Source: Octopus vulgaris (Eukaryota). Taken from it: 64,000 bases of DNA. The notes below the pieces were generated by a model. It did no database searches. It worked only from the letters and a program-made list of their open reading frames with translations, and had not been told where the DNA came from. Numbering within the stretch: the stretch's first letter is position 1; each line of letters opens with the position of its first letter. The position numbers and the translations under genes were made by a program. Positions 851-59,384 of the stretch are shown here, piece after piece. The stretch lies in assembly GCA_951406725.2 (NCBI GenBank), contig OX597819.1, positions 83,948,001 to 84,012,000 of the forward strand, given 5' to 3'.

Positions 851-1192
851 TTTACTTGTTTTAGTCATTGAACTGTGATCAGACTGGAGCAACACAAAGG
901 TTTTTAATTGAACAAATTGACCCCAGTTCTTATCTTTTTAATGCCTGGTATTTATTCTACCAGTCTCTTTTGCCAAACCACTAAGTGACAGGGACAAACA
1001 AAGACTGGCTGTCAAGCGGTGATCACACACACGGCAGGCTTCTTTCAGTTTCTACTTTCCAAATCCACTTACAAGGCATTGGTTAGCTCAAAGTTATAGA
1101 AAAAATTGCTTTGCCCAAAGTAACATGCAGTTAGGACTGAACATAGGACTATGAGGTTTGAAAGCAAACTTATTATACAGGCATACCTGCAC
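851..1192 (-). mobile_element. SINE family A, decayed copy
   Basis: Colinear similarity to 1781-2176 with many CpG->TpG changes. Confidence 0.8.
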
Positions 1193-1780
1193 CATGCTTA
1201 AAACAAGATGTTTTTTTCATTAAATCTTTTAAACTTATTCCACATTGTGATAAAGAAAGAATTATGTGGTTACACACTCAATTCTGTTATCTCATTAAGA
1301 GAAAGGTCAGCAAATTTCACTAATATTTGGGGAGGGAGAAGAGTAGGAGCTGGTATTTGTCAATTTGAGAAATACTGTATAAACAGAATTTAGCCTAAAT
1401 CTCAGCATTTATCTACCAACTAATTATCCAGCATGCCACAAATATTACCATCTTTTTCTGAACATTAGAAATCCATAGGTTGTTGATGACTGTGAAGAAA
1501 GAGAGAGAGAAAAAAAATTTTTTTAACTTTTTCCATCCTTTACCAAGTGGTGGTGGTGGTGGTGGTGGTGGTGGTGGGGTGAAGAAAAATCTAGAGCACT
1601 AAGAGTTCCATAACAAGTAGCTTGACACACTTACTGAAGTGAAATTAACTTTTGTTAGTCAACATATAAAATGGGACAGAAATACTACATAACATTGATA
1701 AGTTTCAATTGCACAACATAAATGGATTCCAAGGCATTTTTTTTTTTTAATGAGTCTCTCTTTTCTCTTTTTTTCTCTTT

Positions 1781-2176
1781 CTCTTTTACTTGTTTCAGTC
1801 ATTTGACTGCGGCCATGCTGGAGCACCGCCTTTAGTCGATCAAATCGACCCCGTAACTTATTCTTTGTAAGCCCAGTACTTATTCTATCGGTCTCTTTTG
1901 CCGAACCGCTAAGTGGCGGGGACGTAGACACACCAGCATCGGTTGTCAAGCAATGCTAGGGGGACAAACACAGACACACAAACACACATATATATATATA
2001 TACATATATACGACAGGCTTCTTTCAGTTTCCGTCTACCAAATCCACTCACAAGGCATTGGTCGGCCTGGGGCTATAGCAGAAGACATTTGCCCAAGATG
2101 CCACGCAGTGGGACTGAACCCGCAACCATGTGGTTGGTTAGCAAGCTACTTACCACACAGCCACTCCTGCGCCTAT
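1781..2176 (-). mobile_element. tRNA-derived SINE family A (abundant cephalopod SINE), well-preserved copy
   Basis: Minus strand has A-box TGGCTGTGTGGT, B-box GGTTCAGTCC, a CORE-like TCTTGGGCAAATGTCTTC, an internal TA/TG microsatellite and the tail ...GACTGAAACAAGTAAAAGAG. Many homologous copies in the window. Confidence 0.9.
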
Positions 2177-2269
2177 AGTCGTTTATAATTCAGAAAATTC
2201 TCTCTCTCTATCCATTTATATATATGTATATAAACACACACACACACAAACATATATATACATATATAT

Positions 2270-2400
2270 GCACAGGTGTGGCTGTGGTAAGAAGTTTGTT
2301 TCTAAACCACATGGCTCTGGGTTCAGTCCCACTGTGTGACACCTTGGGCAAGTATCTTCAACTCTAGCCCTGGGCTGACCAAAACAAGTAAAAGATAAAA
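2270..2400 (+). mobile_element. SINE family A, internally deleted copy (head joined to terminal tail)
   Basis: Head GCACAGGTGTGGCTGTGG...CCTGGGCTGACC is followed immediately by the tail AAAACAAGTAAAAGATAAAA. Confidence 0.75.
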
Positions 2401-2460
2401 GATACACATATGTATATACGCATACACACATATTCATACACATATTTGTATATATTTAAT

Positions 2461-2800
2461 GTTTTACTGATTTCAATTGGACTGTGATCAAACAGGGGCA
2501 CTGCCCTAAAAGGTTTAGTTGAACAAATCAATCCCAGTGTATATTTTCTATGTCTGGTACTTATTCCATCAGTCTTTCTTGCCTAACTGCTGTTACAGGG
2601 ACATAAACCAATATCAGGGGAGGTGGGTACATATGCAAACGTACACATGTACAGTGTCTTCCACATAACTTGTCTATCAAATTCACTCACAATGCATTGG
2701 TTGGTCTAGGGCTATAGTAGAGGACTTTTGCCCAAGGTGCGATATAGTAAGACTGAACCTGAAATCACGTGACTGTAAAGCAAGTTTTTTAACCAGTCAT
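2461..2800 (-). mobile_element. SINE family A, decayed copy
   Basis: Similarity to 1781-2176. Confidence 0.7.
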
Positions 2801-3381
2801 ATATATACATATTGTAATTTACATGTTGAATTTTTCAATGAAGAAAAAACAAAAACAACATTTTAAATATTTTCTCTGGTTTCATAAGCCAAAGAAAATA
2901 TCTTTAAACTAATTTTTTGTGTAACATTTTCTAGATTTAATTCTCAGCATGGAATATGAAAACACATTTACAACTCACTGGGGATACTTTTTTTTTCTTT
3001 TGATATTTTACAAAAGAAAAAAAAATCAAAATATGCAGAATAAAATTAAATTAGAGATGGTACTGGTCAAACTTCAACAATCTACAAACAAAGGAAAAGT
3101 ATAAGCTCTAAAACAACAAATCCTCAGCAAAATATACTAAATAGAACAGAATTGTAACTTTCCCTGCAAAGTTGACTGTCAATGGTAGTAAGTAATACAA
3201 GGTCTTTTTGGTTGCAAAAGAAATGAATGATATTTGATTGAGGCAAGATCTTATGGCTGAATGCTCTTCCTGTTACCAACTACTACTAATTTTACAAGTA
3301 AATGATACCCTTATTCCATAGGTTTTCAAAAGTAGTGTGACTAGTCATAACACCAGCATAAGAAGTGATAAAGGTGGAATA

Positions 3382-4697
3382 TGCAGGCTGTTTCAAAAAC
3401 TTTGATATCATTTGAAATGCAAATATCTGGGTAACCACATAGCCTAGGCAAATGAAACTAAACAGATTTAATGTTGGGCAAAACAGGATTTACTCATCAA
3501 AATTTGAATGAAAAATTCAAAGGCATGTGAATTTCATAAATGATATCACAAGATTTTGCAAGTTTTCAATGTGTGCACTGTCTATGACATAGCTGTCAAG
3601 TTGGTAGTTCAACTCCTGCCAAACATGCTGCAGTATGTCTTGGGTAACAGTCTCTAGTGTGGCAGTGATTCTCTACTTGAGTTCCTCTAAGCTTGTAAGA
3701 AGAATGAGGACATAGACCAATCCACTCACATAGACACAGAGAAAAATTTTGCAAGGTATCAGGTCAGGTGAACATGGCACATAGTCTTCATCATCTGCAC
3801 ACCCAATCCATCTCCCTGACAGATTTTCATTGAGATAAGCCCACAGAGTGAGCTTCCAGTAAGGTAGAGCCCTCTCCTGTTGTAAAATTAAGTGTTTGTA
3901 TTCATTAGCAATGAACTTCTCAATTAGCCAGTCCTGAAGCATTTACAAATAAACATCACCAGTCACATTTCCTTCAAGGAAAAATGGGTCATGAAATTGA
4001 TTCTTGGGGATGGCGCATTAATTTTTGGTGAGTTCCTCATGTGCTCAACTGTAGCATGGGAATTTTCTTTACCCAAATTTGAACATTATGCTTGTTGACT
4101 GCCATTTATATATGTGGCTTCATCACTGAAAACAAGATGTTCTTCAAACTTTTCTTCAAATTTCTCTTGGATATTGACACTGAATGGCTTACACTTTTGC
4201 TTGTCACCTGTCTTAAGGACTGAACGAGCTGCAGCTTGTAGGGTGTCATTTGCAAGCATTTCCTTGTGACACATCAAGCTGGGCTTCCATATTTACTCTT
4301 CTAATGGAATACCTGGGGCTTTGCAAAAATGTTTCCCAAACCCACTCAACCATCTCCTCCAATACTGGTGGTCATCCAGACTCTTTTGACCTTTATAGAC
4401 AGCCTTCTTCTTTGATCTTTTTGTGCCATGTAGAAAATTGCATTGCATTTGGTGCATTTTTAGTGAATTCTTTCACAAATGCATGCAGCACAGCCTTATT
4501 CAACTGTGTTCAAACATACTCTAACATGCAAAGTAACATTTCATTTCTACTAAATGGCATTTCTACACCTGAAAGAAACCCCCAATAAAACATAGAATTT
4601 TGAGTTGTTTCTATACATGCTGTTAAAATATGAGATCATTTGAATGAAAATTGGTCAAGTTGATTACAAAATATCATTTTTCTGAAACATCTCATAT
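3382..4697 (-). mobile_element. Decayed Tc1/mariner-family DNA transposon
   Basis: Minus-strand peptides LVFSDEAT, LQQERALPYW (QQDGAPPH-like), YLNENLSGRWIG, SPDLIPCKIFL..YV...VY (WPPRSPDLTPCDFFLWGYVK-like). Degenerate TIRs CAGGCTGTTTCAAAAACTTTGATAT (~3384) and ATATCATTTTTCTGAAACATCTCATA (~4671). Confidence 0.85.
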
Positions 4698-7600
4698 AAA
4701 GATCAGGGCACATTTGTGCATGCAAACACACACACACATTTTATGTGGAACAAGCTTCCTGAAATTTTTTTCTACCAAATTCCCTTAAATTGCACTGGTC
4801 AATCCAGGGATATAAAAGGACACCCAAAGTGCTCCTGCACAATGGGACCAAACCGAAAAAGAATGTGGTTTCAAAGAAAAAATTTTAACCACACAGCCGT
4901 GCCTGCAACTATAAAAACTAAATAGTAAAGACTATTTATATAATGAAACATGTTTATGAAGTTTATGGAAAAAAATTCCAAACAAATTCCATTGTCTGGC
5001 AGTAAATCATCCTGCAATATAGTTAGTTCTATGTGCAGTTCCACTGTACAATTCCATAGTATCCCATAAAATATCTCACAACCTACTGGGATGCTGGGGG
5101 CATCATTTAAGATGCCACTGTGCAATAACACATGGAAAAAAGAGGCCACAGAATCTAGTATTATTATACCAGCCTTTCAGTTTCTTAACATACATATTGT
5201 TGTTTTGTCTTTGAACAGGACATTCAGTGCTTTATTTCATCAAAGGTTACTGCTCCAAATATAAGTCACTATTTTGTATCATGGAACAACAAGCATGATT
5301 TTAGGTTATAATTTGAATTTGCATGAGCAACCTTTTTCTAGAAGCAGGTCACAAGAGACATGGCTCATCAGGCAGGCTGCAATATTAATTTCCACTTATA
5401 ATTAGGTAAACCATTTAAAAAGTACTGCAGGTGGCAATTTGTCTATGACTGATATAGTCTATTGCTAAACCCTAAAGTTATAGTGATTTTCCTTACATCA
5501 ACCTAATGTAGGAACCTCTATGTGGTTGCTCAGACTACTTAAACAGTCAAATGAATGGATGGTCTGTTCAATCAGAGTTGACTTCAAGTTAAATGTCAAC
5601 TATCCATATCCATTTTTGATTCAGTTCACCTAATTGTTGGAATAGGTATAAAGGCGGCTTCATTTTGGTAAATATACATACATAACTATGATAAATAGTA
5701 TAAGGTCCTATCCAGAGAAACAAGACTTATCCGTCACTACCTTGACACTACAGACTCAGATGTAAAAAGCCAGCATTATGCTTTAGGAAAAGATGAACTT
5801 TCTCAACATAAATATAGACATAGACGCTTGAGGGAAGAGTTGGACATTGCTTTGGAACAGTTACCACTACCTGATACAGAAGGGAAAAGGAAATAAAAAA
5901 TAACTGGGGGTAGGAATGACATAAATGTAAATTTTTAGAAAAAATTCTATCAGAACCATAATTCCTATTGTCTGAAACAATGGAATACTATACAATGAAG
6001 AGGGTGGGGGAGAAATAACCACACCAATTCCTTGCTATATTCCTTCCAGCCAAGAGTTGATATAAAACCTTCTTTGACCTAGTATTATTTAACAAACATT
6101 GATTCCCTTTTCAAAATACTTTCATTAAAGTGAAAGTGATATAAAACAACAGAATCTCATTGCGACCCAGTGGCTGAACCAAAGAGGAATGTCAGGCTTA
6201 CTAACCAAACAGACGATAGTTTGTCTCAAATCACCGATGCCAGACAGTGGACTTCAACGGCCCAATAGGTTAGACACACAAATACATGACTGACTACAGA
6301 CGGATGAAAAGGTCCTCGTTCGAACTGAGAACAAAGCGTTAGGCTATCTAAGTATCAAGTGCATTTTTATATTCAAGCAAAGATAATTACAGCTTTCACA
6401 ATTGGAATAGTCGAGAAGGAATACAGCATAAAAATTATCCAAAGGTAGATGTTGGAGCACCACCCAGAATATTTCAACGAGGACCGTGAATCACACACAC
6501 ACACACACGTGTATCAATATTATTACAAACACAGAAAGTACTCAATACTATATATACATAATCAGAGAAAGTGGGGAGACTGTGTTGGAAGGAATACGTG
6601 TAATAACTGGGATATTGGAATATCAAAAACTATTTGTTTATAATGTTAGGTACACACACCTGACTCCCATTAGTGTAAACGTTATCTAGCAGGTTTTTAA
6701 CAAATCATTGTTGCCATTATGTTAGAATTCATAGGCCGTTTTGAGGTTGTGCCCCCAAAAAAACAAGCAAGTCCAGGAGAAAGCCGAGAAGGAGACGGTG
6801 GAAGCAATGCAGCGTTTATCTCTCATCTAGCTATCATCCCTTCTCCTCATATACACATGTATGTACATATCTATTTAACTACACATACATTATATATATA
6901 TATATATATATATATAATCACACACACAATGTTTGTTTATACTGATTTTAAGGTCATCTATGACACAGCTGTCTCTCTCCTTGCTACGTAATACACGCAC
7001 ACGTATATATAGATACAAACTGCATGATGTATGTTTTATATACACGCGTTGAGTATGGATTGTTTTTAATCAGGCCATTGTTATTATCCTCTTACATACG
7101 TGTTCAAGTTAACATTTAAAACATTTTTCAGACTAACCTTCAATGTACCTGGTCAGCACTGAAAATAAAGGAGTTGGGGGACAGTGGACAGAGGGAAAGA
7201 ATGATTACTATATACAGTTTGTACAATATTTATGCTACACACATACACACCAACGGGGAAGCATCTACATGGTCGCTCGAACCGCTAAAATAGCAGCCAA
7301 ATCGCCCTTAAATCACACCTGGTATCTTAAAAAAGAACATATTGCTGAATATGATCCTGGGAACCCTGCATAGAAAAAAACAATAGGTGGTCACGGACGA
7401 AATGCCATTGATCATATATATCCAATCTATAAAAAGTATCTTGAGGTTAAACAACTGATTAGAGAAAGTACCAGGGAAAAGAGAAGTCACTAACTTACTA
7501 TAGATAGTTAAAATTAATAATCACATTTTATCGCCTTAAAAAAGGCAAGACGATTCACTGAATAATGTTGTCTTAGTTACACTATATCAGAAAAGACAGT

Positions 7601-42840: not shown

Positions 42841-44320
42841 ATAGTACTGCCTAAAAGAGTTGTTTATACAACACTGTAGGGGATAAATGTCCCAAAAGGT
42901 TCAGAAAGCCTTCACTCAACGCTGGATGCAGCAATTCAAATGCTTTCTGAAGCAGTAACGCCCATTTTAAACTAGCTACTGAACTAGTTAAACAGTCATT
43001 TAAAGCTACTGCTCAATTATTCTAAATGATCTATAAGACATCCACACGCACACACATTTTTATTTTTGCAGTATGTAGCGTTGCATTAAATAATGAGTAA
43101 AAAGACACATAATAAATGCACAAACTAACGGAAAACAGACACAGATGGTCGCCAACTCCTCATCATTTATCAGCCAGAGGGTCAACCACAATTTCGTATC
43201 TAATATACACAAATACATATTCTTTTATTCATTTCAGTCATGCCGTATACATAGATATATTTGTACAGAAGTAACTACGTAACGTATACACTATGCAATA
43301 CAAGCGAAAAGCAGCATCTAATTACTCTTTTCACACTATACAAATGCACATACGTATCAGTGGCGTTTTCTGCATGTATGCAATGCATGCTTTAAATAGT
43401 TTAGAATATACAAATGAATGCAAATAAAGATGATTTTACTATAAAACCTTTTTGTTTTTTTTTTAATGTGAGACAGTTCGAAAGGAGGTACATACATGTT
43501 TATATGTACCCTACTTTAATTATATAGCGTTGATTTTTAATATTGTACGCGCTGACTTTAAATGAGTTCTGTAAACATGAAAAGAAATACAACTAATTAG
43601 CAGCCTTTGCACAACAAACATATCTAGTATAACTAATGAAAAGTTTCCTTGCACTTTTCAGGACATCAACAATGAATGGCTGAGAAGAGTCGTCGAAAAA
43701 TTTTCGTTCATGTTTATTGTTGAAAGATTGTACTGGACACGATGATCCAGAATGGAGAAGCGAAAGACTGTTCTTTTGCTACAGTTGTGTGGTTTAAAAC
43801 CTGTTCCGTAATCATATAAACATGACAGAGATGGAGGAGAGATATTGTGTGTGCAATGTGTCATTTGCTATAGTATAGTTATAGTGTAGCTTTAGACCTT
43901 TAATGTTCACAAATATGACTGGCAAACAGCTGATTGCTGGATAACGGCTGACCTGATGCTTGACCGAGTTAAATTCCTTCCTCCTGTTCAACATTCAGAT
44001 CTGGTCTATTTTCTTCTCGCTGAATTTGCTCCATGTTGAGTTTGACTGATATGTAATCAACAAACTTCATTAGATAGTTTTTTTTTTCTGATACCAGTCA
44101 TTAACTTTGATGTGTAGTTGTTGAAGGTCATTGGTTAAAGCTGTAAGCATTCATATTCAACACGTTCGGATACATTTAAATGTAGAAAGACTTCCACTGC
44201 GGTAACTGTTTCGAAACAGGAATATTTTTGATAAACAATGAGCTGGACTATAAATGATGGCAATGAACATGTTTCTGTGTGGTTATGCTTCACTAGCTAC
44301 AGACACCGAACCCGTCGTTC

Positions 44321-45881
44321 ATTAAATCTTTATTATAGGCACGATGGCTGCAAAACAGGACGTGGGGTACAGATAATAAAAAAAATCGAAAAATATGATA
44401 TGAAAATGAATTATTTGTAATGAATTAAATGGAATGGCTTACGAGCCCCCCAAAACTCGTAGTTTCATTTAAAATACAATTCTGCTATACTGGGCGTTCA
44501 TCTGTAATGTATTCTATTAACTTCTCCTGGTCTACAATCGCTGGCAAACTGTCGTAACGGATATATTGCATTTCACAAACAGTCGAAAACACACTTTTCA
44601 ATTTCATAAATGTCTCTTTCTCTACGACCGCCGACTTCACTTGGTCATCAAATATTTTTGGGTTCAACCTAACCCTGATTAAACCTTTCTTACCTGCCAG
44701 TCTCTTTTCGATTTCTTTGTCTTTCATATACAATATTACTACTTTAAGATTTTTTCCTTCGGGTCTTCCTCCTTCTTTACATACTTTTAACTTCTCTTCC
44801 ACACTTCTTTCTCATTCTTGGTTTGCCGTTAAATTTGCCGGTTCTCTCGCTTTCGCTTTTGCATTCTTATCTTCGCACGTTCGATCTTCCATCTCGTCTG
44901 TAGTCTTATTTTTCGCTTTTTTCTTTTTTTGAACTTTAGGTGGTGATTCCACCCTCGTTCTATCTTCTTTTCCTTCTGTTTCTCCAACTCGTCACCACTT
45001 TCCACATTTTCTGTGTTCACACATTCTTCATCCGCCATCTGCAATATCTCTGTCTGCGCCTCCAATGTTCTCGTCGGACACCCATCTTTCATGTGGCCTC
45101 TAATTTTGCATTTGTAGCACACAGGGGGTCTTCCCTCTACCACGACTCTGAGTCGTGTCTCGTCGGGGAACACCAACTCCTCTGGAATGTTATACAGGTC
45201 TGGCATGGTTATATGGACCAACGCCTGCACCGCATAACCCCACCACTGTATATCTTTTGACTTTTCCACGTTCAATATTTCAACGCTTTCTTTGCAGTTG
45301 AATATCACTGCCGCTAAGATTCTTTCCATGTTCAGCTCCGGCGAAATCTTACTGATTCGTATTCTTACTACCCTTTTTCCACGATAACTTGGTAATAACA
45401 TCCATTTTTCTGTTTTCAGTATTTGCGTGGCACTCTTCTTCGCTTCGTCTTCGTTTTTAAAAAGAACGACCACTGTTGCGTATTTTCTACCTCTATTATA
45501 GAAGGTAGGCTCTCCTTCAACTCCATTCAGACAGCACTCAATCTCCCCTATCGGCGCCACTTCTACTTTCTTTGAAGCCAAGTTCCACGTTCTGTATGTT
45601 ATAATACGTTTTTCTGCTTCTTTCGCTTCTTCTTCAGATGGTGTGACCTTCACACAGTCACCTTCCTTCTTTAAGCTGTCGAAATATTTCTTCAAAATCT
45701 CCTTCTCGATGATAACTTCTTCCAACTGCAATTCCCGCATACGTTTGGGTTTGCATTTTCGAGAAAAACCTCCAAAAAATTCCCCACGCCGCAACCGCTT
45801 CCACCAACGAATTCGATCTCACAACCGCGACACAACAATAACGTAATCAAATTTTCCGACACCAAAAAAACCAACAAAAGG
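44321..45881 (-). mobile_element. ORF1-only non-autonomous retroelement (HAL1-like 'half-Tx1')
   Basis: Flanked by a 15-bp direct repeat with 1 mismatch: CCGAACCCGTCGTTC at 44306-44320 and CCGAACCTGTCGTTC at 45882-45896. Contains only an ORF1 homologue plus short UTRs. Minus-strand 3' end is ...GCCATCGTGCCTATAATAAAGATTTAAT. No endonuclease or RT sequence between the TSDs. Confidence 0.85.
44485..45740 (-). pseudogene. Divergent Tx1-type ORF1 homologue with a frameshift (~44945) and one in-frame TGA (44812-44814)
   Basis: First ATG at 45740. Aligns by eye with the neighbouring ORF1: EAEKRIITYRTW/EIEKRTVIFKTY, TFYNRGRKYATV/TFLTRGKRYGTV, LKTEKWMLLPSYRGKR/LKTDKITLLPIYRGRR, VEGRPPVCYKCKIRGHMKDGC/VEGRKPRCFTCGKKGHIKKDC. 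The C-terminal part continues in the frame of track ORF 44485-44802. Confidence 0.85.
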
Positions 45882-46240
45882 CCGAACCTGTCGTTCCTTG
45901 TCTACTAAGAACTGCCGTTTTATATGTAAATGGCAAATAATAAATTTGCTGGCATATGCAAAGCTCTGTCAAACTAGAATTAAGTAATTCAAGCACATTA
46001 AGCAGCAACTATAAAGATAATGCTATGTACATTTATATTGAATTCGTTCATGTACACGCAATTGGCTGTCTGACGAGGCTTAATGTTTTGTCCCGACTAA
46101 TCAACACCTATATAAAGTTGTCACTGTTGCTACTAAAAACAAAAACAAAAAGAAAAAAAAAAAGTAAGTTGTTTTTTTTTTCGTTAGTCGAATTTGTTTG
46201 ACTAATTTCAGTGAAGACGCTGAGGAGGGGTAGACCAATA

Positions 46241-47578
46241 ATGGCCAGCCCGAAGGCGGACAGAGCGGAAGACCAAACCCAGGTCCTTAGTCCAGAGATG
46301 TCCAGCCTGGAAGGAATAATGGCTATACCCGACATTTTCTCGGACGAGGAGGAAAGTGGGAGAGTCAGAAGAAGTATAGATGTGCCAAGCATGGCAAGGA
46401 AGGTGCTAAACTTCGCCGAGGCAGCTAGTCCGAAGGAAAGAAGGATTAACCTAACAAGGGTGGAAGAAGCGAAAAAGATAGTATCTCGAGACGGGTACAA
46501 GATCAAACTGAACCAGACGAAAGAATCTCTCGAAGAGATAGAGAAGAGAACGGTAATATTCAAAACATACCGTAACATGGAAAGGAAAATAGACTTTTCG
46601 TCGGAAAAGGAAGTGGAGGCGTGCCTACTACCCATCTGGGATAAAATCACATTTTTAACCAGGGGTAAGAGGTACGGAACCGTGGAAACCAGGTTCAAGA
46701 CAGAAGAAGAAGCGAGGGAACATTCAATGAAACCCCTGAAAACAGACAAAATAACCCTTCTACCTATTTATAGAGGAAGGCGTATTTCAAAAATTACGGT
46801 TGCCAACATACCGCCGGAGATCGAGCCCGAACTGATAGTGGCTGGGGTCACTGCAGGACTGGAAGACCAAATGGAAGTGCGTGATGCCACGGTGATAGAA
46901 GCCAAAAAGTGGCAAGGACAGAAAGTACAAATTATTGTACAGGCAGAGCAGGTCGCCTTGGAAGAGATAGGCGAGGTCATCGAAATAGGAGAGAGCCGGA
47001 TGGCAGTAATGGTGGAGGGCCGGAAGCCCAGGTGTTTCACCTGTGGCAAGAAGGGCCACATCAAAAAGGACTGCAAGCCGGCGGAGAAGGAAAAGAGCGT
47101 ACCCACAAAACCAAGTGCTCAAGTGGCGGCAACAGAAACAACAGCCGCAACAGAAGTAGGGGAGGGGTGGTCACAGATTGCTGCGACAAAACGAAAGCAC
47201 AACAACCCCTCCTCGGAGAAAATTATAAGCAAAGAGAAGAGAGAAGTGAAGAAGGCGAAGAAGCCGGAGAAGGAGAACAAGGTGTATGTGGCGATGAATA
47301 TCGCAAACAGAGAAGTGGTACGCAGAGTGGAGACTCAACACGTCGAGGAGGTGGAGATGGAAGCGAAAGGTGGAGGTTGGAGATGCTACGTGATGGGACT
47401 GAAAGGGTTCAACACGTTTGCAAACGATTTTAGAAAAGACGTAGGCACACCCAGAATGAGCAAGGAGGATGCCCTGAAGGATGCAGAAAGGAAGAACAGC
47501 AACGCGCCGAGTCCACGTTCATCTGAGGCAGAAGAGACGGGTCCCCCCCGCCGGCCGGACCCAGAGGAAATAAGGTAG
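46241..47578 (+). CDS. Tx1-type ORF1 (Gag-like nucleic-acid-binding protein with CCHC zinc knuckle)
   Basis: Open frame 46211-47578 with first ATG at 46241. Motif VEGRKPRCFTCGKKGHIKKDC (C-X2-C-X4-H-X4-C) followed by a basic/acidic low-complexity tail. Lies directly upstream of an APE-RT ORF. Confidence 0.9.
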   Translation: MASPKADRAEDQTQVLSPEMSSLEGIMAIPDIFSDEEESGRVRRSIDVPSMARKVLNFAEAASPKERRINLTRVEEAKKIVSRDGYKIKLNQTKESLEEIEKRTVIFKTYRNMERKIDFSSEKEVEACLLPIWDKITFLTRGKRYGTVETRFKTEEEAREHSMKPLKTDKITLLPIYRGRRISKITVANIPPEIEPELIVAGVTAGLEDQMEVRDATVIEAKKWQGQKVQIIVQAEQVALEEIGEVIEIGESRMAVMVEGRKPRCFTCGKKGHIKKDCKPAEKEKSVPTKPSAQVAATETTAATEVGEGWSQIAATKRKHNNPSSEKIISKEKREVKKAKKPEKENKVYVAMNIANREVVRRVETQHVEEVEMEAKGGGWRCYVMGLKGFNTFANDFRKDVGTPRMSKEDALKDAERKNSNAPSPRSSEAEETGPPRRPDPEEIR

Positions 47579-47585
47579 GCAAACT

Positions 47586-50500
47586 ATGGCTGTTTACGTT
47601 GGTTGCATAAATGTGCGCGTCCTGGTAGCGAACTGGAAACAAGGTCGTTTACTAAACGATATCAGGGCGCGGAATTTAAATGTAATTGTCGCTACTGAGA
47701 CACGAATCGAAGGGCCAAGAGATCTACTCCCGCTCATGGAAGACTACGAGAAATTTATTTCTCCTGGACGGCATGTGGGCGGGAGTGGGGTGTTGGTTCT
47801 GCTTAAAAAAGATAGTGTCGCAGAGAAAAAGTTGATTTTTTCTGATTCAGAAGGTAGGCTGGTCGTCTTAGATCTGACGTTCAGTTGTGGTAAAGAAATC
47901 AGGCTGGTGGCGGTGTATGCACCTAATACGGGTCAGACTGATTTTTATCGAGGCTTGGAGAAGTTTCTTGGCACGTCAAAATCCATAGTCATGTTAGGGG
48001 ACTTTAATGCCATAGTCGACGCGCACGTCGATGGCATTGGCTCGAAAGATAGGAAACCAAACGCTGGCTTCCGGGATCTACTGAGTCGCTTTCAGCTAGT
48101 AGATCCCTACAGACTTGAATTCCCGAACGCTCCACAGTGGACGTGGTTAAGTGGCGACGGGTCTGTCGGGTCTTACATAGACAGAATTTTTATTAGAAAA
48201 ATAGATAAAGGATTAGTTAAGTGTCCACAGTTTCACACGGTCAGTTACAGCGATCACAGGATGGTCACTGGCGAACTGAACCTAGATAAGTTAGGTAGTA
48301 GGGGATCCGGCTACTGGAAACTCAATAAGTCCCTCCTGGCTATTGAGGAGTACAGAAAGCGGATCGAGTTAGTAGTGAAGAGGGCGTTAACCGGTTCCAT
48401 TATTAACAACAAATGGTGGTACGCCCTCAAAAGAGCCATCAAATACGAGTCCGTTAGATACAGCATAGGTCTAACAACTAGCGGGCGTAAGAAAGAGATG
48501 GGGCTAGTTAAGGCCTTAGAGGAAGCCATCAGAGCTGGCGATAGGGCCCAGGTTAGGCTGAGGAGACTGGAGTTGAACCAGCACCGCGAAGCCCAACATA
48601 TGGGTTGCATCGTCAGAGCTAGAATTCGCGCAATGGGGTGCGAGGGTATCAAGGCTACCGGATGGGCACGAGTTGTGGAGGCTCAACGTGGAAACGATTC
48701 CACAATTAAGTCTGTGACGAACGGGCGAGGCGATGTGATCACCGAACCAGAGGAGATGTGTCGGACGTTTCAGGAGCACTTCGCTCGGCTCTTTGGGGGC
48801 GACGGCGGACCGGAGGAGAGGGTGGACCTAACGGACATCCTCGCCGGGCTGCCGCGCCTCTCGGGGCAGGATGCGGAGAGCTGTGAAGCGTCGATCTCGC
48901 CTGAGGAGATTGCCGAGGTCCTGGCCGACTGCGGCGAAGGCAGGGCGCCGGGGATCGATGGTTTACCTTACGAACTATATAAAAGAATGCCAGACTTGTT
49001 CGGGAACGTGCTGGCCGGCGTTTTCACGAACTGGCGGCAGAATGGGTTCATTCCCAGGTCTGTACGTCGGGGAGTGGTGACGCTGATCAGGAAGGACCCG
49101 AGCAAGGGGGACAACATAGACAACTTTCGGCCCATCACACTGCTAAACACAGAGGTGAAGATTTTGGCCAAGGTGTTAGCGAAAAGGTTGACGCGTGTCG
49201 CGGGTGGTCTGATCGGGGAGGCACAAACTTGTGCGATCCCTGGAAGAACCATCCAGGACAATCTTCACCTAGTACGCTACACAATAGAAAGGTTTGGGAA
49301 TGACTCTGGCAAGGGTGGGGCATTGGTCCATTTAGACCAGAGTAAAGCGTTTGATAGGGTGAACCATTGGTACCTGGTGTCCGTGCTGGCGCAGTTCGGT
49401 CTCGGCATTGGCTTCCTCAGGTGGATCATACAGTTGTACGATAACATCGACTCGATCGTTCGGGTGAATGGCTTCCTGTCGAAGCCGTTCCGCATCAAAC
49501 GGTCTGTTCGTCAAGGGTGTCCGCTCTCCCCGATTTTGTATGTGATGGCTCTCGAGCCATTGCTGCGAAAGCTGAGCGCCATCCCGATGAATCCAGGAGG
49601 TGGAGGATCTGTGACATCGTATGCGGACGACATCACCATCATCGTGACCGAGGTGGAACTCCTACGTAATGTGGGAGACGCCATCAAGGCTTACGAGACG
49701 GTGACAGGAGCAAAGATTAACCGGGAAAAATCGGTCGGCTTGCAACTCGGCACCTGGAGGGGCAAGTCGATGCCTTCGAATAGCATCGTGGGATGCTGGA
49801 CGGAGGGCCCGGTTAAGCTGCTAGGGATCTGGTTTGGTCCAGGTCTCCAGATAGAAAAGAACTGGTCTGAGGTGTCGGGCAAGGTGGCTCACGCGGTCGG
49901 GACTTGGTCCGGACGGTGGCTGTCCTTGAAAGGGAGGGCGGAGGTGGCCAATGTGTTTTTAGCATCGGTCATCACCTACCGCCTGACTGTCGTCCCTTGT
50001 CCGGATTCGTGGTTGAGCAAGTTGGAGAGACAGATCTTCCGCTTTTTGTGGAAGGGAAGTGCTCCTCTTGTAAGACGTTCTATCTGCTGTCAGAAACCGT
50101 TAAAGGGTGGCTTGGGGATGCCTTGGCTGATGATGCGCAGAGATGCGCTGAGGTTAAGGCACCTTTGGCTCTACCTGGATGGTGAACGGGTGTGGTCCCC
50201 GCTTGCGAAGCAGATGTTCCCCAGCTTTGTCAGTTTCGGTGGCAGAGAAACCTGGTTTCGTCGCAGACTTAGATCGAGCATGTGGTATTCGGAGTGCCAT
50301 AAGGCACTCTGCCACTTCCGCAGGTCGGGCAATGCCGGCGGCTTTGGTACCACCGCAGCTTTCTATAGCAGGTTGGTAGAGGCCGAAAATGACGATGCCT
50401 TAGGAAGGACCTTGGACCTCGATAGAAATCAGTTGGACAGCCTGTTCCGAAGGACGTTCGGGCCGAAGACATTGGATAACTTCCAGAAGTCTTTGACCTG

Positions 50501-50972
50501 GCAATGTTTCAGAGGAGCTTTACCCGTTCGGGATAAACTCACAAGGCATGGTTGGAGTGGACCATCGAACTGCCCAAGATGCGAGCGGGATCTGGAAACA
50601 GTCTCGCACGCTATTGTTCAGTGTCCGGAAGTCTCGGACGTGTGGGTATATGCCGAACACCTGTTGTCGGACGGAAGAAGAGTACAGCTATCGGCTGAGA
50701 CAATTATAAAAATTGACTCGCCTAGCTTTTTGACAAGTGAAGGTAAGCATTGCTTTCTCAGTACAGTAGCAGTAGCGAAAGAGTGTATATGGAAGACCAG
50801 AATGAAAGCGGTAACGACAGGCACCGTGATCTCTGGCTCCGCCTTGGTGACCTATTTCAGGTTCCACCTAAAAAGAAAGGTGGAATTAGAGAAAAGGTGT
50901 CTGTCTGCGTGTGAGTTCGATAAAATATGGAAGCGTGTGGCACGGTTGCTGCGAGTGAGAGGAGCCACGTAA
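47586..50972 (+). CDS. Tx1-type ORF2: APE endonuclease + reverse transcriptase + C-terminal zinc finger (1128 aa)
   Basis: APE motifs INVRVL, ATETR, VYAPN, LGDFNA, IDRIF, SDH. Tx1/L1 linker GYWKLNKSLL. RT motifs NFRPITLLN, LDQSKAFDRV, QGCPLSP, YADD. KGGLG thumb. C-terminal CPRC...HAIVQC. No stops or frameshifts. Confidence 0.96.
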   Translation: MAVYVGCINVRVLVANWKQGRLLNDIRARNLNVIVATETRIEGPRDLLPLMEDYEKFISPGRHVGGSGVLVLLKKDSVAEKKLIFSDSEGRLVVLDLTFSCGKEIRLVAVYAPNTGQTDFYRGLEKFLGTSKSIVMLGDFNAIVDAHVDGIGSKDRKPNAGFRDLLSRFQLVDPYRLEFPNAPQWTWLSGDGSVGSYIDRIFIRKIDKGLVKCPQFHTVSYSDHRMVTGELNLDKLGSRGSGYWKLNKSLLAIEEYRKRIELVVKRALTGSIINNKWWYALKRAIKYESVRYSIGLTTSGRKKEMGLVKALEEAIRAGDRAQVRLRRLELNQHREAQHMGCIVRARIRAMGCEGIKATGWARVVEAQRGNDSTIKSVTNGRGDVITEPEEMCRTFQEHFARLFGGDGGPEERVDLTDILAGLPRLSGQDAESCEASISPEEIAEVLADCGEGRAPGIDGLPYELYKRMPDLFGNVLAGVFTNWRQNGFIPRSVRRGVVTLIRKDPSKGDNIDNFRPITLLNTEVKILAKVLAKRLTRVAGGLIGEAQTCAIPGRTIQDNLHLVRYTIERFGNDSGKGGALVHLDQSKAFDRVNHWYLVSVLAQFGLGIGFLRWIIQLYDNIDSIVRVNGFLSKPFRIKRSVRQGCPLSPILYVMALEPLLRKLSAIPMNPGGGGSVTSYADDITIIVTEVELLRNVGDAIKAYETVTGAKINREKSVGLQLGTWRGKSMPSNSIVGCWTEGPVKLLGIWFGPGLQIEKNWSEVSGKVAHAVGTWSGRWLSLKGRAEVANVFLASVITYRLTVVPCPDSWLSKLERQIFRFLWKGSAPLVRRSICCQKPLKGGLGMPWLMMRRDALRLRHLWLYLDGERVWSPLAKQMFPSFVSFGGRETWFRRRLRSSMWYSECHKALCHFRRSGNAGGFGTTAAFYSRLVEAENDDALGRTLDLDRNQLDSLFRRTFGPKTLDNFQKSLTWQCFRGALPVRDKLTRHGWSGPSNCPRCERDLETVSHAIVQCPEVSDVWVYAEHLLSDGRRVQLSAETIIKIDSPSFLTSEGKHCFLSTVAVAKECIWKTRMKAVTTGTVISGSALVTYFRFHLKRKVELEKRCLSACEFDKIWKRVARLLRVRGAT

Positions 50973-52599
50973 ACATGCTGTAGGTTGGCTGCCGAGTTTC
51001 GGTGGGAATAGCAGGGCTCGTGGGGTCGGCAATCCTGGTGTTCCCACTTCATGTGTTCCCTTTATGTTGTGTTGTTGTGTATCATTCGATTTATCCGATT
51101 TTGTGTAATTTAAAAAAAAAAAAAAAAAGTTCATTTTTCTGTAAATACCATTTGTGTCTCATGACCCCAAATCATGATGTATTGTCCCATTCTTCGTTGG
51201 CCCCTTGTGGGTAATAAAGAAATAAATTCGTTCATGTACACTCAAACGTGAAAATATCTTCGTTGCAGTAGCTGTCTCGGGAAAAAAATCTCTTTATAGA
51301 CAATATATTTGAAGACAAAATCCGGGTTTTTGCATATTGAAAATAGAGAGTCCCGATTTTCAACTTTCAGGTTGAGATCTGTTACATTATTTCTTCGGCA
51401 GGGAGTAGGATACAAGCGAAATCTGTCAGCATCTACCTATTTACGGTATTACATTGGACAAGACAGACCATAGTTCTTTTTCAAAGACGAGCTAGGTAAT
51501 ATAGGAAGAGAGCTAGTCAATGATATTAATGTTAAAACAACAACTACATTTTCGGCAAAGTTCTCAATGACAAACTTGACTTTACAAATCTTATACTGAT
51601 TGTTTTTGAGGTGTGAATATTCTATTAGAAATCATTATTTACAGCTGTCTTAATCACATTTGAGGTGTTAGTTGCGAGTGCAATTGAGCAACGGGTGGCA
51701 GGACTTGAATGTGTTGCCGCTCTTTAGTTTGGAATACACAACTGAAAGCTTATCTCATTTGCTGGAATTAATTCAACTGTAGTATGGATTTTAAAAGTAG
51801 TATTTTCTGTATTCATTCTCATGTAAGAAAAACAACGTACTAACAAAAATTACCAATTAGTAGTGGACGTAGTTAGTATTAATGGATTCATCGATTTCTG
51901 AAGAAAATCATTCTCGTTTTCGAATATCAATTTCACTTGCGTTTGTATATTATACGAGATGTTTTGATCTCTGTGGTAGGAGGTAGCCGTAATTTGTTTA
52001 TTACCGAGATAGTATTTGACTTGTCTGAGAGGAAGGGGAGAAAAAAGGAAGAACAAGTAATTGCCATAAAGAATATGGAGCTTCTATTAATTTCTTTGAA
52101 ATTCCCTTTTTGTTTCGATTTCAAGTGTAATCGGTGGTCAAAACTATATAGTTTATCCTTCCTGAATCAATAAAATAAATATCAGTTTTGTGTAGAGCTG
52201 ATTCAATAAGGCTAAACCTTTCCTCCTACATGCACACAAGTTTTTCCAAGGGAGAATCCTCCGGCTTCTAATGCAGTTTGGTACCTGTATCGTAGCAGGC
52301 GTTGCTGTCAGAACGCAAAGAGCCAGAATAGATACTGCAAGGCAATTCGCCCGACTTTCTGACTGTTCCATCAATCCAATCCACCATCCTGGTTTGGTAC
52401 TTTTTTAATGACACAAAGACAAAGATGACTTCAACTGGATTTTAAGTCAGAGCTCAAAAAGCCGGGACAAATACTGCGTGATATTCTGTTCAACACTCTA
52501 ACGACTTTGCCAATTCACTACCTTAATCCTATCTTTAAAAAAAGTAACAAAAAAGAAAGAAAAATTATTAAATGATGCCATGTTTGTAGTTGGATCCGC

Positions 52600-57256: not shown

Positions 57257-57766
57257 GTAAATCCTCGAGTATAATCCGCATTTTCCCCCCAAAATGTAAA
57301 GGCCAAAATCCCTAATGCGTACTATATACGAAGTTAAAAATGAAAAATATTTTCTAAGCAATGTCCGAGTCTCTATTTGCTGCCCGGCATTGTTTATTCA
57401 GATGCATTTTGTGATGTCGGGGGCGAAAATACCTTAAGCTAAGCCTGAAAGCAATGAAGTCATAAAAAAATCATCCATAACTTGCAGTAAGCAACATTTA
57501 TTAAACGTTATTGCTATTATTTCTTTATTTTCTGCAAACAAAATGCACAAAAAAGCTACACGTTTGCATTATGTTATATATACAATAATAATAAAGGACG
57601 TTACCGTGTACATTTTTACAAACCAAGGACGTTATATAGACCTCCTTGACTCAAGTTAGAGAAGGGGTGCGTATTATACACAAGGTTTAGCGTTTTCAGC
57701 GGTACAGGCCCCTAAAAATCTCCAGCGTATTATACTCAAGGGCGGACTATACTCGAGGAATTACGG
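57255..57766. mobile_element. Tc1/mariner (pogo-like) MITE in (TA)n
   Basis: TA|CCGTAAATCCTCGAGTATAATCCGC ... GCGGACTATACTCGAGGAATTACGG|TA; internal GCGTATTATAC subterminal repeats. Confidence 0.88.
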
Positions 57767-57810
<44 letters not shown>

Positions 57811-57828
57811 CATATATATATTTATATA

Positions 57829-59075
57829 TATGAAGAGGTGCTGGCTGAGTGCTCTAGGGACAAATCACCGGGGCTGGATGGTCTGCCCTACGAATTTTAT
57901 TGTAGCATGCCGGACTCGTTCGGACACTTGCTGGCGCATGTCGCGGAGAGACTTGTTGGGAGGGCGCAGACATGCGCCATCCCAGGTAGGTCAATCCAGG
58001 ACAATCTCCATCTCCTACGTTACACCTTAGAGAGGGTGGGTAAGTTATCCGGTAAAGTTAGGGCTCTGGTCCATTTAATCCAGAGTAAAGCTTTTGATAG
58101 GGTAGACCACCAGTACCTGGCGGCTGGGCTAGTCTCGGACTTCCGTGGTTGGATCAACGCCATTTATGGCGGCATCAAATTCACAGTCCAGATAATCAGT
58201 TACCTATCGGTGCCGTTTAGGATCGAGCACTCGGTTCATCAGGGGTGCCCTCTGTCTCTGCTTTTGTATGTACTGGCTCTTGAGCCATTGCTGTGGAGGT
58301 TGGAGAGTTTGGGGAGCATCCCCAATGAATTGGGATGGGGTAAGTCTGTTTCTGCATATGCGGATGACATCACCGTGTCCGATGAAGCTCAGCTACTTTA
58401 TGTAGAAGATGCGACCAAAGGATACGAGACGGTGGCAGGGGCAAAAATTAACAAGGCCAAGTCCATTGGCTTGCGGCTCGGCACCTGGAGTGGCAATACG
58501 ATAATGTCCAGTGTCATAGGGCACTGGACGGAAGGTCCTGTTAAGTTGCTTGGAGTTTAGTTTGGACCGGATTCCCAGACGGAGAACTGGAGTGAAGTGG
58601 CAGATAGGGTAGATGCCCTCATCTGGACCTGGTCTGGAAGGGCGCTATCCCTGAACGGGAGGGCGGAGGTGGTGCAGGTGTATATTGCATCTGTTATCAC
58701 TTACCGTCTGACCGTTTTCCCTTGCTCTGATTTGTGGCTAAACAAGTTGGGACGCCTTCTCTTGCGCTTTTTGTGGAGGGAGAGAAAACCGCTTGTGAGG
58801 CGCTCTGTTTGCTGACAAGAACCGCTAAAGAGTGGCTTAGGGATACCTTGGCTGATGATGTGCATACATGCGCTGAGGCTAAGGCACCTCTGACTTTATC
58901 TGGAGGGTGCCAGGTGTGGAATTCGCTGACGAAGAAATTCTTTCTGAGATTGGCCTCCTTGGAGGAACTCAAACCCAACTTCATTAAAAGACGCAACCCG
59001 ACTGAATGGCAAAAGGAGTGCCAACAGGCACTCGTGCTAATCCATAAGGCGAGCAAAGCCGGCAGCGGGAATATA
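57829..59075 (+). pseudogene. Decayed fragment of a related Tx1 ORF2 (RT region)
   Basis: Track ORFs 57838-58560 and 58597-58815 match ORF2 (PGLDGLPYEFY, AQTCAIPGRSIQDNLHL, QSKAFDRV, QGCPLS, YADD, WTEGPVKLLG, RAEV..V..ASVITYRLTV). It has stops, an internal deletion and truncation at both ends. Confidence 0.92.
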
Positions 59076-59384
59076 CATACATACATACAAAGTATGGGGA
59101 TCTAGTTCACAAGTGATCTAAACGATTAGGTACGCTACGTAAGTGCTGTAACGGATTTCTAGGTCTCCAAGGTTATAGCTGAGACGGTAGTTATGGAGCC
59201 ATCGGAAATCTGCAAGGGCTCCATAACAATTTTATATATATATATATATATATGAAAATTCCCAAGTCGATTCTGGTATGAATTGAACTCACAAAAATGA
59301 GACAGTGAACTCTTAGTCCACCATGAAGCAGTAAGTCTTCCAAGCGAAATCTATTTTCCGCATAACAAAAGTCAGGACAATAGA

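What the first reader, a model, noticed from the sequence alone, without database searches (positions are those of the whole stretch)
44306..45896. ORF1-only retroelement with its own TSD: a HAL1-like 'half-Tx1'
Seen: a 1.56-kb minus-strand unit bounded by a 15-bp TSD (1 mismatch). It consists of a 5'UTR, an ORF1 homologue with a CCHC knuckle, and a ~160-nt 3'UTR ending TAATAAAGAT. There is no trace of APE or RT. Its protein is clearly homologous to the neighbouring Tx1 ORF1 but very divergent (roughly a third of residues identical by eye), so it is not a deletion product of that neighbour. Ordinary LINE truncation removes the 5' end and keeps ORF2; here ORF1 and both ends are kept. Known: vertebrate HAL1 ('half-L1') elements encode only ORF1p and depend on L1 ORF2p. 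Inference: this is an independently evolving ORF1-only family derived from the Tx1 clade in a mollusc, supplying its own RNA chaperone and borrowing ORF2p in trans. This copy has one frameshift and one stop, so it is probably inactive.
Basis: partly seen in the sequence, partly recalled or inferred. Interest (0 to 1): 0.85.

Follow-up and report, generated by a model that had tools for sequence, protein, structure and literature searches.

The report
Octopus ORF1-only Tx1 retroelement family
This is a dead copy of a multi-copy octopus jumping-gene family that carries only the RNA-binding gene ORF1 and likely borrows the copying enzyme from full-length Tx1 elements, a design already known from mammals, flies and slime mould but not found in my searches for this group of elements.

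Summary
A 1,561-bp minus-strand unit (44321-45881) lies between 14/15-identical direct repeats. It holds a broken ORF1 (two predicted RRMs, CCHC knuckle, C-terminal domain) that is 33.7% identical to the neighbouring Tx1 ORF1, and no ORF2 trace.

It is a family, not a one-off deletion. Public contigs cover the whole unit far above flank depth, mostly at 85-95% identity. Depth does not step at the ORF1 stop, diverged contigs run from ORF1 straight into the same 3'UTR, and the premature stop is private to this locus. Coding differences to relatives are mostly synonymous (18 of 34, p 2e-5 to 0.015). Named protein relatives are octopod.

Corrections: a probable third lesion near 45732; the neighbour is not shown to be the partner; no orthologous empty site was seen; one near-identical contig leaves the window inside the right repeat. 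Contigs are short, so an autonomous relative with a similar ORF1 is not excluded.

Verdict: a HAL1/TRE5-A.2-like ORF1-only non-autonomous Tx1-type family, a new variant of a known kind.

The parts
44306..44320 (.). Direct repeat at the element's 3' side (target-site duplication, likely the original target)
   Evidence: paralogous uninserted contigs match 25 nt ending at 44321 (table 5)
44321..44484 (-). 3'UTR, 164 nt, 31% GC, ending TAATAAAGATTTAAT with no poly(A); core about 44404-44475 conserved across subfamilies
   Evidence: depth peak and joints
44485..44760 (-). ORF1 C-terminal alpha/beta domain and the stop codon (44487-44485)
   Evidence: shared with octopus ORF1-type proteins P0005, P0007, P0041, P0045, P0089, P0098, P0130; model pLDDT 61.6, no clear fold match
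44812..44814 (-). Premature stop, private to this locus
   Evidence: other base in 167 of 183.1 depth (X4) and 35.6 of 35.6 (X7)
44761..45077 (-). Lys/Glu-rich linker of ORF1 with the frameshift near 44960-44975
   Evidence: frames; other copies leave the window at 44954-44961 (table 7)
45078..45119 (-). CCHC zinc knuckle (C208, C211, H216, C221 of P0001)
45138..45608 (-). Two predicted RRM-like domains of ORF1
   Evidence: AlphaFold2 pLDDT 91.1; best Foldseek hits are tandem-RRM proteins, E from 1.5e-4
45609..45756 (-). ORF1 N-terminus; probable family start ATG at 45756, uncoupled by a probable deletion near 45732; in-frame ATG at 45740
   Evidence: N-termini of P0043, P0012, P0050; X2 record 15 stops aligning at 45733
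45757..45881 (-). 5'UTR, 125 nt, T-rich start (internal promoter inferred, not tested)
   Evidence: another copy has its 5' end near 45869 (table 5c)
45882..45896 (.). Direct repeat at the element's 5' side
   Evidence: X2 record 14 leaves the window at 45894, unexplained
45897..45990 (.). Multi-copy flank: rest of the repeat the element landed in
   Evidence: depth 179 against 18-26 (X4) and 65 against 4-8 (X7); joints 44321 to 45910 and 45933
46041..51241 (+). Neighbouring full-length Tx1-type LINE: 17-bp perfect repeats 46041-46057 and 51225-51241, ORF1 46241-47578, ORF2 47586-50972 (APE, RT, zf-RVT), ending TAATAAAGAAATA; candidate partner only

Best explanation
This is a decayed copy of a multi-copy, ORF1-only retroelement family of Tx1 type that likely makes its own RNA-coating ORF1 protein and likely borrows endonuclease and reverse transcriptase from full-length Tx1 elements. 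Shown: the anatomy, the copy family, the direct ORF1-to-3'UTR junction in several subfamilies, and a synonymous excess in ORF1. Predicted: tandem RRM plus CCHC fold. Inferred from TRE5-A and L1 biology: transcription from the 5'UTR, ORF1p binding its own RNA in cis (the reason ORF1 stays under selection without ORF2), ORF2p recruited in trans through the conserved 3'UTR and AATAAAGA end, and target-primed reverse transcription giving the 15-bp duplication. Weakly inferred: a preference for a repeat-derived target, shared with other Tx1 elements. This copy, with one stop and probably two frameshifts, would not make ORF1p.
For: (1) Copies: 452 contigs laid in X4 and 421 in X7, 288 and 285 of them under 95% alike; all 17 bins inside the unit stand at least 14-fold (X4) and 12-fold (X7) above flank, medians 41- and 27-fold (summed contig depth is not a copy number, and some contigs belong to the neighbour's 5' end). 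(2) No depth step across the stop: 44479 against 44494 reads 53.6/53.6, 347.9/351.4, 209.6/210.9. (3) X2 record 10 (17 differences in 137 nt) runs from 3'UTR through the C-terminal domain and, by matching depth and length, rejoins the linker at 44925-44961; X7 records 25 and 26 bridge the stop. (4) Two more diverged loose ends next to the 3'UTR core read by hand as ORF ends with a stop; one scores against ORF1 C-ends above all but 78 of 4,046 pre-stop 9-mers. (5) The stop is private. (6) 18 of 34 coding differences are synonymous, against 20-33% neutral. (7) The ORF ends in a domain shared with ORF1-type proteins, not in an ORF2 remnant. (8) Other 3' ends fall at 44321-44325 with other flanks, one head-to-tail. 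(9) Precedent: TRE5-A without ORF1 kept 0.5% activity, with a stop 12% (PMC3159450, passages).
Against: Contigs are short and tables were cut (40 of 138 difference rows, 18 of 232 loose ends, 31 of 928 pieces shown), so most ORF1 N-terminal matches cannot be followed to their 3' end; N-terminal depth exceeds C-terminal depth. Three contigs in X7 leave the 3'UTR at 44481 into sequence I could not assign. No orthologous empty site: the uninserted contigs are paralogues and differ in the 13 nt right of the right repeat. X2 record 14 leaves the window at 45894. The 3'UTR is not significantly like the neighbour's (154 of 500 shuffles reach the score), and the C-terminal-domain profile does not find the neighbour ORF1. 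The synonymous test rests on rows the tool chose by support. Tx1 membership rests on ORF1 similarity only, since there is no RT.
Confidence: 0.78

Rival explanations
1. A mixed family: autonomous Tx1 elements with a closely related ORF1 still exist, and the ORF1-only forms are repeated internal-deletion or spliced derivatives that owe their selection signal to the parent.
For: N-terminal ORF1 depth is higher than C-terminal depth and most contigs cannot be followed; unassigned loose ends at 44481; 214 loose ends not shown. ORF2 was lost repeatedly in Drosophila telomeric elements (10.1101/2025.06.09.658640, passages).
Against: No depth step at the stop in three runs; the junction is seen at about 99%, 87% and lower identity; none of the 18 loose ends shown lies on the UTR side of the stop.
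Confidence: 0.15
2. 3'-truncated retrocopies of a full-length Tx1 made by premature polyadenylation behind ORF1.
For: The unit ends at an AATAAA motif; this route is suggested for HAL1 in PMC4859970 (passage).
Against: No poly(A) tail; the 164 nt after the stop are AT-rich, have stops in all frames and no ORF2 match, whereas ORF2 starts 7 nt after ORF1 in the neighbour; contigs passing the 3' end run into different flanks.
Confidence: 0.03
3. Processed retrocopies of a domesticated ORF1-derived host gene (L1TD1- or ZCCHC3-like).
For: Synonymous excess; a ZCCHC3-domain cluster is among the Atlas look-alikes, 0.91.
Against: Many subfamilies, a head-to-tail copy and a Tx1-type end without poly(A); hundreds of diverged relatives (409 hits).
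Confidence: 0.03
4. A unique internal deletion of the neighbour or of one LINE copy.
For: Adjacent to a full-length Tx1.
Against: 33.7% protein identity, opposite strand, own duplication, distant in the tree, many other copies.
Confidence: 0.01

Closest known systems
HAL1 (half-L1), mammals
   Same: Non-autonomous LINE derivative encoding only ORF1p, arisen several times (PMC5753468, PMC13756887, passages).
   Different: HAL1 derives from L1 (Transposase_22-type ORF1p, per PMC5203782); this has an RRM-RRM-CCHC ORF1p, a Tx1-type end without poly(A), and an octopus host. The original HAL1 paper was not held.
TRE5-A.2, Dictyostelium
   Same: ORF1 kept, large ORF2 deletion, mobilised in trans, 3' module essential, ORF1 acting in cis (PMC3159450, passages).
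   Different: TRE5-A.2 is a derivative of a living parent in the same genome; here no close parent was seen and several diverged subfamilies share the design; no tRNA gene in the window.
HeT-A and other ORF1-only telomeric Jockey-clade elements, Drosophila
   Same: ORF1-only lineages that depend on others' ORF2 and can found new families (10.1101/2025.06.09.658640, passages).
   Different: Jockey clade and telomeric; this unit is interstitial with a target duplication and a short 3'UTR.
Tx1 clade (Tx1, Keno, Kibi, Koshi) and its parasite SINEU-3
   Same: Target preference, insertion into other repeats and tandem copies around a duplication (PMC4494074, passages and section 14).
   Different: Autonomous members have APE-RT; SINEU-3 codes for nothing. 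This unit codes for ORF1 only; its target rule is not established.

Membership tests
ORF1-only non-autonomous LINE (HAL1-like design) | Encodes a LINE ORF1 homologue | tested here: met
   33.7% over 199 aa to the ORF1 of an intact APE-RT element; fold
ORF1-only non-autonomous LINE (HAL1-like design) | No ORF2 between ORF1 and the 3' end | tested here: met
   bridging contigs
ORF1-only non-autonomous LINE (HAL1-like design) | Multiple copies with the same structure | tested here: met
   junction in several subfamilies; whole copies with both ends not seen on one contig
ORF1-only non-autonomous LINE (HAL1-like design) | Target-site duplication confirmed by an orthologous empty site | tested here: inconclusive
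   repeat real; only paralogous uninserted contigs seen
ORF1-only non-autonomous LINE (HAL1-like design) | ORF1 under purifying selection in the ORF1-only lineage | tested here: inconclusive
   18 of 34 synonymous, but the contigs compared are not all shown to be ORF1-only
ORF1-only non-autonomous LINE (HAL1-like design) | Mobilised in trans by a partner's ORF2p | not testable with these tools
   needs a retrotransposition assay
HAL1 in the strict sense | Derived from vertebrate L1 (Transposase_22 ORF1p) | tested here: not met
   no Transposase_22 match in 133 aligned members; zf-CCHC in 20 of 133
Tx1 clade | RT phylogeny places it in Tx1 | not testable with these tools
Tx1 clade | Type I ORF1p (RRM plus zf-CCHC) | tested here: met
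   type defined in PMC5203782
Tx1 clade | Target sequence preference | tested here: inconclusive
   lands in a multi-copy sequence, one tandem copy, two other Tx1-type insertions within 150 bp, but the duplications share no clear rule; no Rfam or tRNA target
SINE | Small-RNA-derived head, non-coding | tested here: not met
   coding ORF; no Rfam or tRNA match

The most novel reading that the evidence does not exclude
A whole octopod clade of Tx1-type ORF1s, including the Octopus bimaculoides proteins at 53-56% identity, lost ORF2 once, long ago, has outlived its parent, and has kept diversifying under selection as target-preferring parasites of unrelated Tx1 ORF2ps: the first long-lived ORF1-only lineage of the Tx1 clade, and a natural test of what ORF1p in cis is for.
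Probability: 0.35. Interest if true: 0.62.

Novelty: new variant of a known kind. Interest (0 to 1): 0.45.

Why it matters
It would extend the ORF1-only strategy from L1, Jockey and TRE elements to a Tx1-type element in a mollusc, showing that the design recurs across ORF1 types. Such families are missed by RT-based annotation and show up as 'uncharacterised CCHC proteins' in octopus gene sets. A lineage that keeps ORF1 under selection with a divergent ORF2 donor makes ORF1-ORF2 compatibility and cis preference testable. The concept itself is established, so the surprise is moderate.

Tried and rejected
No whole genome is held. Word-index protein searches: P0001 none; neighbour ORF1 2 hits; alignment A2 against proteins of 794-2265 aa none, weak evidence. 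None of 153 stored relatives matches the neighbour ORF2, but that is uninformative because neighbour-like ORF1s are unfused too. JGI metagenome scan with P0001: 156 pattern matches, none confirmed. No RNA holder listed, so nothing is said on expression. Rfam and ARAGORN: no target RNA gene. Hairpin in the last 80 nt: z -2.05, weak, none in the neighbour's. 5'UTR likeness to the neighbour: 20 of 500 shuffles, not pursued. C-terminal-domain fold: best Z 6.2, no clear match. By-eye homology of the C-terminal domain to the neighbour's was not supported by the profile. A shared 7-mer in the two duplications lies in opposite orientation to the elements and was not taken as a target rule. Earlier findings: four look-ups, nothing. 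Literature: nine searches listed no paper on a Tx1-derived or cephalopod ORF1-only element by title or abstract start; the O. vulgaris repeat paper PMC13282606 (parts 1-2 of 3 read, term search of text and its one supplement) has no HAL1, ORF1 or non-autonomous mention. Its consensus library on Zenodo, Repbase and Dfam could not be searched and may already hold this family.

Full report
OBSERVATION. Direct repeats of 15 bp, one mismatch, lie at 44306-44320 and 45882-45896. Only 1 of 6,327 complex 15-mers sampled from the window has such a copy at this spacing. Between them, on the minus strand, are a 125-nt 5'UTR, a broken ORF and a 164-nt 3'UTR ending TAATAAAGATTTAAT without poly(A). The first ORF piece is 33.7% identical over 199 aa to ORF1 of the full-length element 144 bp to the right (E 1e-30); that element's ORF2 (APE, RT, zf-RVT) finds nothing in the unit.

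THE PROTEIN. phmmer over 1.84 billion representatives gave 409 relatives at E 0.001 or better. Of 20 looked up, 13 are named Octopus proteins, 1 Argonauta and 6 unnamed; the neighbour ORF1's best hit is an Octopus protein at 70%. AlphaFold2 on 133 sequences gives pLDDT 91.1. The best Foldseek matches are tandem-RRM proteins (SFPQ/PSPC1, IMP3, Sxl; E from 1.5e-4, TM-scores only 0.2-0.44). With the CCHC knuckle this is a Type I ORF1p as defined in PMC5203782 (passages). The last 91 residues form a domain shared with seven octopus-type relatives; a profile built from the element and five of them found the other two at E about 1e-23, but not the neighbour ORF1. So the ORF ends in ORF1 sequence, not in an ORF2 remnant. 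Close relatives begin with an M-x-T-x-[ST]-Y-A-like start about nine residues before the segment that starts our frame. The window has such a start at 45756 in another frame, and X2 record 15 stops aligning at 45733. I infer a third lesion there. In a 48-row tree the element and the neighbour ORF1 fall on opposite sides of the deepest split (92/98, midpoint root; the closest hits P0005, P0009, P0012, P0043 were left out as too short).

IS IT A FAMILY? No genome is held, so I used public runs. 20 of 24 listed runs, from 10 studies and four organism codes, hold the stretch or part of it. I laid 4 of them on 43800-46300 at 85% likeness. X4 and X7 gave 452 and 421 contigs, 288 and 285 under 95% alike; some belong to the neighbour's 5' end. 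All 17 bins inside the unit stand at least 14-fold and 12-fold above the flank, medians 41- and 27-fold; the tool warns this is not a copy number. The insertion at this locus is present in all four runs (organism codes A, B, C): records span flank and 3'UTR. X1 and X2 carry the same stop. Relatives do not: another base is read at 44812 in 167 of 183.1 (X4) and 35.6 of 35.6 (X7).

DO RELATIVES LACK ORF2? Four lines say yes. First, depth 6 nt downstream and 7 nt upstream of the stop is equal in three runs (53.6/53.6, 347.9/351.4, 209.6/210.9); a close full-length parent would raise the ORF side. Small offsets can cancel. Second, X2 record 10 (781 nt, depth 40.5, 17 differences in 137 nt) runs from 3'UTR into the C-terminal domain, and a joint of the same depth rejoins the linker at 44925-44961; lengths add up to a colinear copy (same record inferred). 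X7 records 25 (21 differences) and 26 (2 differences, depth 30 against 7.7 flank) bridge the stop. Third, two loose ends beside the 3'UTR core read by hand as ORF ends. The one at 44475 aligns without gaps to our last codons and stop (21 of 30 nt by hand). The one at 44454 resembles ORF1 C-ends better than all but 78 of 4,046 pre-stop 9-mers, and not the neighbour's ORF2 end; modest support. Fourth, contigs passing the 3' end stop matching at 44321-44325 and enter different flanks, one of them the 5' end of another copy, head to tail. Against: contigs are short; only 18 of 232 loose ends, 40 of 138 difference rows and 31 of 928 pieces were shown; N-terminal depth exceeds C-terminal depth; three X7 contigs leave the UTR at 44481 into unassigned sequence. 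An autonomous relative is therefore not excluded.

SELECTION. Of the 40 rows shown, 35 lie in the ORF: 18 synonymous, 17 not. Dropping one row that is an allele of this same locus gives 18 of 34, against 20% (equal rates, p 2e-5) or 33% (transitions only, p 0.015) expected. The rows were chosen by the tool and are not all tied to ORF1-only copies.

TARGET. The right flank 45900-45983 is itself multi-copy, and contigs in X4 and X7 join 44321 to 45910 or 45933. They share only 25 nt with the left flank, while the filled allele is unbroken, so they are paralogues of the target and not empty alleles. They differ from the window in the 13 nt right of the right repeat, and X2 record 14, near-identical to this copy, leaves the window at 45894. 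Both points are unexplained and leave the exact 5' boundary open. The neighbour sits in a perfect 17-bp repeat 144 bp away, and X7 shows a 12-nt AATAAAGA-containing insert in a 23-bp duplication at 45970-45992. Three Tx1-type events in about 160 bp suggest a preferred region. Insertion into repeats and tandem copies are described for Tx1 and its parasite SINEU-3 (PMC4494074, passages and section 14). No RNA-gene target was found.

MECHANISM. Most likely the RNA is coated in cis by its own ORF1p and reverse-transcribed at the target by a borrowed Tx1 ORF2p that recognises the 3' end. These steps are inferred. The closest experimental model is Dictyostelium TRE5-A.2: ORF1 kept, ORF2 deleted, mobilised in trans, 3' module essential, activity 0.5% without ORF1 and 12% with a stop in it (PMC3159450, passages). 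The partner is unknown: the neighbour shares the TAATAAAGA end, but its 3'UTR is no more alike than shuffles (154 of 500).

COMPARISON AND NOVELTY. It works like HAL1 (PMC5753468, PMC4859970, PMC13756887, passages), TRE5-A.2 and the ORF1-only telomeric elements of Drosophila (10.1101/2025.06.09.658640, passages). It is not a HAL1 in the strict sense: no Transposase_22 match in 133 members. The Tx1 label rests on ORF1 type, ends and the neighbour's anatomy; no RT tree was built. Nine literature searches listed no Tx1-derived or cephalopod case; the O. vulgaris annotation reports 80 L1-Tx1 consensus sequences, 13 families recently active, and does not mention ORF1-only forms (PMC13282606); the bivalve survey PMC10294476 (passages) has no HAL1 mention. 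Repbase, Dfam and the Zenodo library were out of reach.

VERDICT. New variant of a known kind. Interest 0.45.

Noticed in passing
window 46041-51241 (+): Full-length Tx1-type LINE with both ORFs open, ORF2 starting 7 nt after the ORF1 stop, and a perfect 17-bp duplication: probably young. Its 5' end has very high depth in X7 (1,178-5,796) but 100-279 in X4.
   Followed up: partly
window 45970-45992: In run X7 a contig repeats these 23 bp around a 12-nt insert holding AATAAAGA: possibly an extremely 5'-truncated Tx1-type insertion in the same hot spot (table 5c).
   Followed up: no
window 45869 joined to 44321: Run X7 shows a head-to-tail pair of copies of this family with 22 other letters between them.
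   Followed up: partly
window 45686-45894: X2 record 14, one difference from this copy, continues for 243 nt with other sequence from inside the right repeat; X2 has almost no cover beyond 45990. Another insertion, a rearrangement or a transcript feature; unexplained.
   Followed up: no
window 44297-44320 plus 45897-45990: A short multi-copy sequence (about 8-9 times flank depth) split by the element; identity unknown, no Rfam match, no other copy in the window.
   Followed up: partly
window 57691-59100 (+): Decayed RT fragment, 61% identical to the neighbour ORF2 over 319 aa, 69% at DNA level.
   Followed up: no
window 43640-43750 (+): Pyrimidine tract plus AG followed by a 27-codon open frame ending in TGA: possibly a last host exon, which would put the insertions in or near a 3'UTR. 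Not tested.
   Followed up: no
proteins P0035, P0067, P0130: Gene models fuse this ORF1 type to WD40, LDL-receptor and RGS domains: probably mis-annotated intronic copies; exonisation not excluded.
   Followed up: no
protein P0025: A 603-aa distant ORF1 with the same C-terminal domain lies on a 2,209-bp unnamed contig, too short for ORF2: could be another ORF1-only unit or a cut contig.
   Followed up: no
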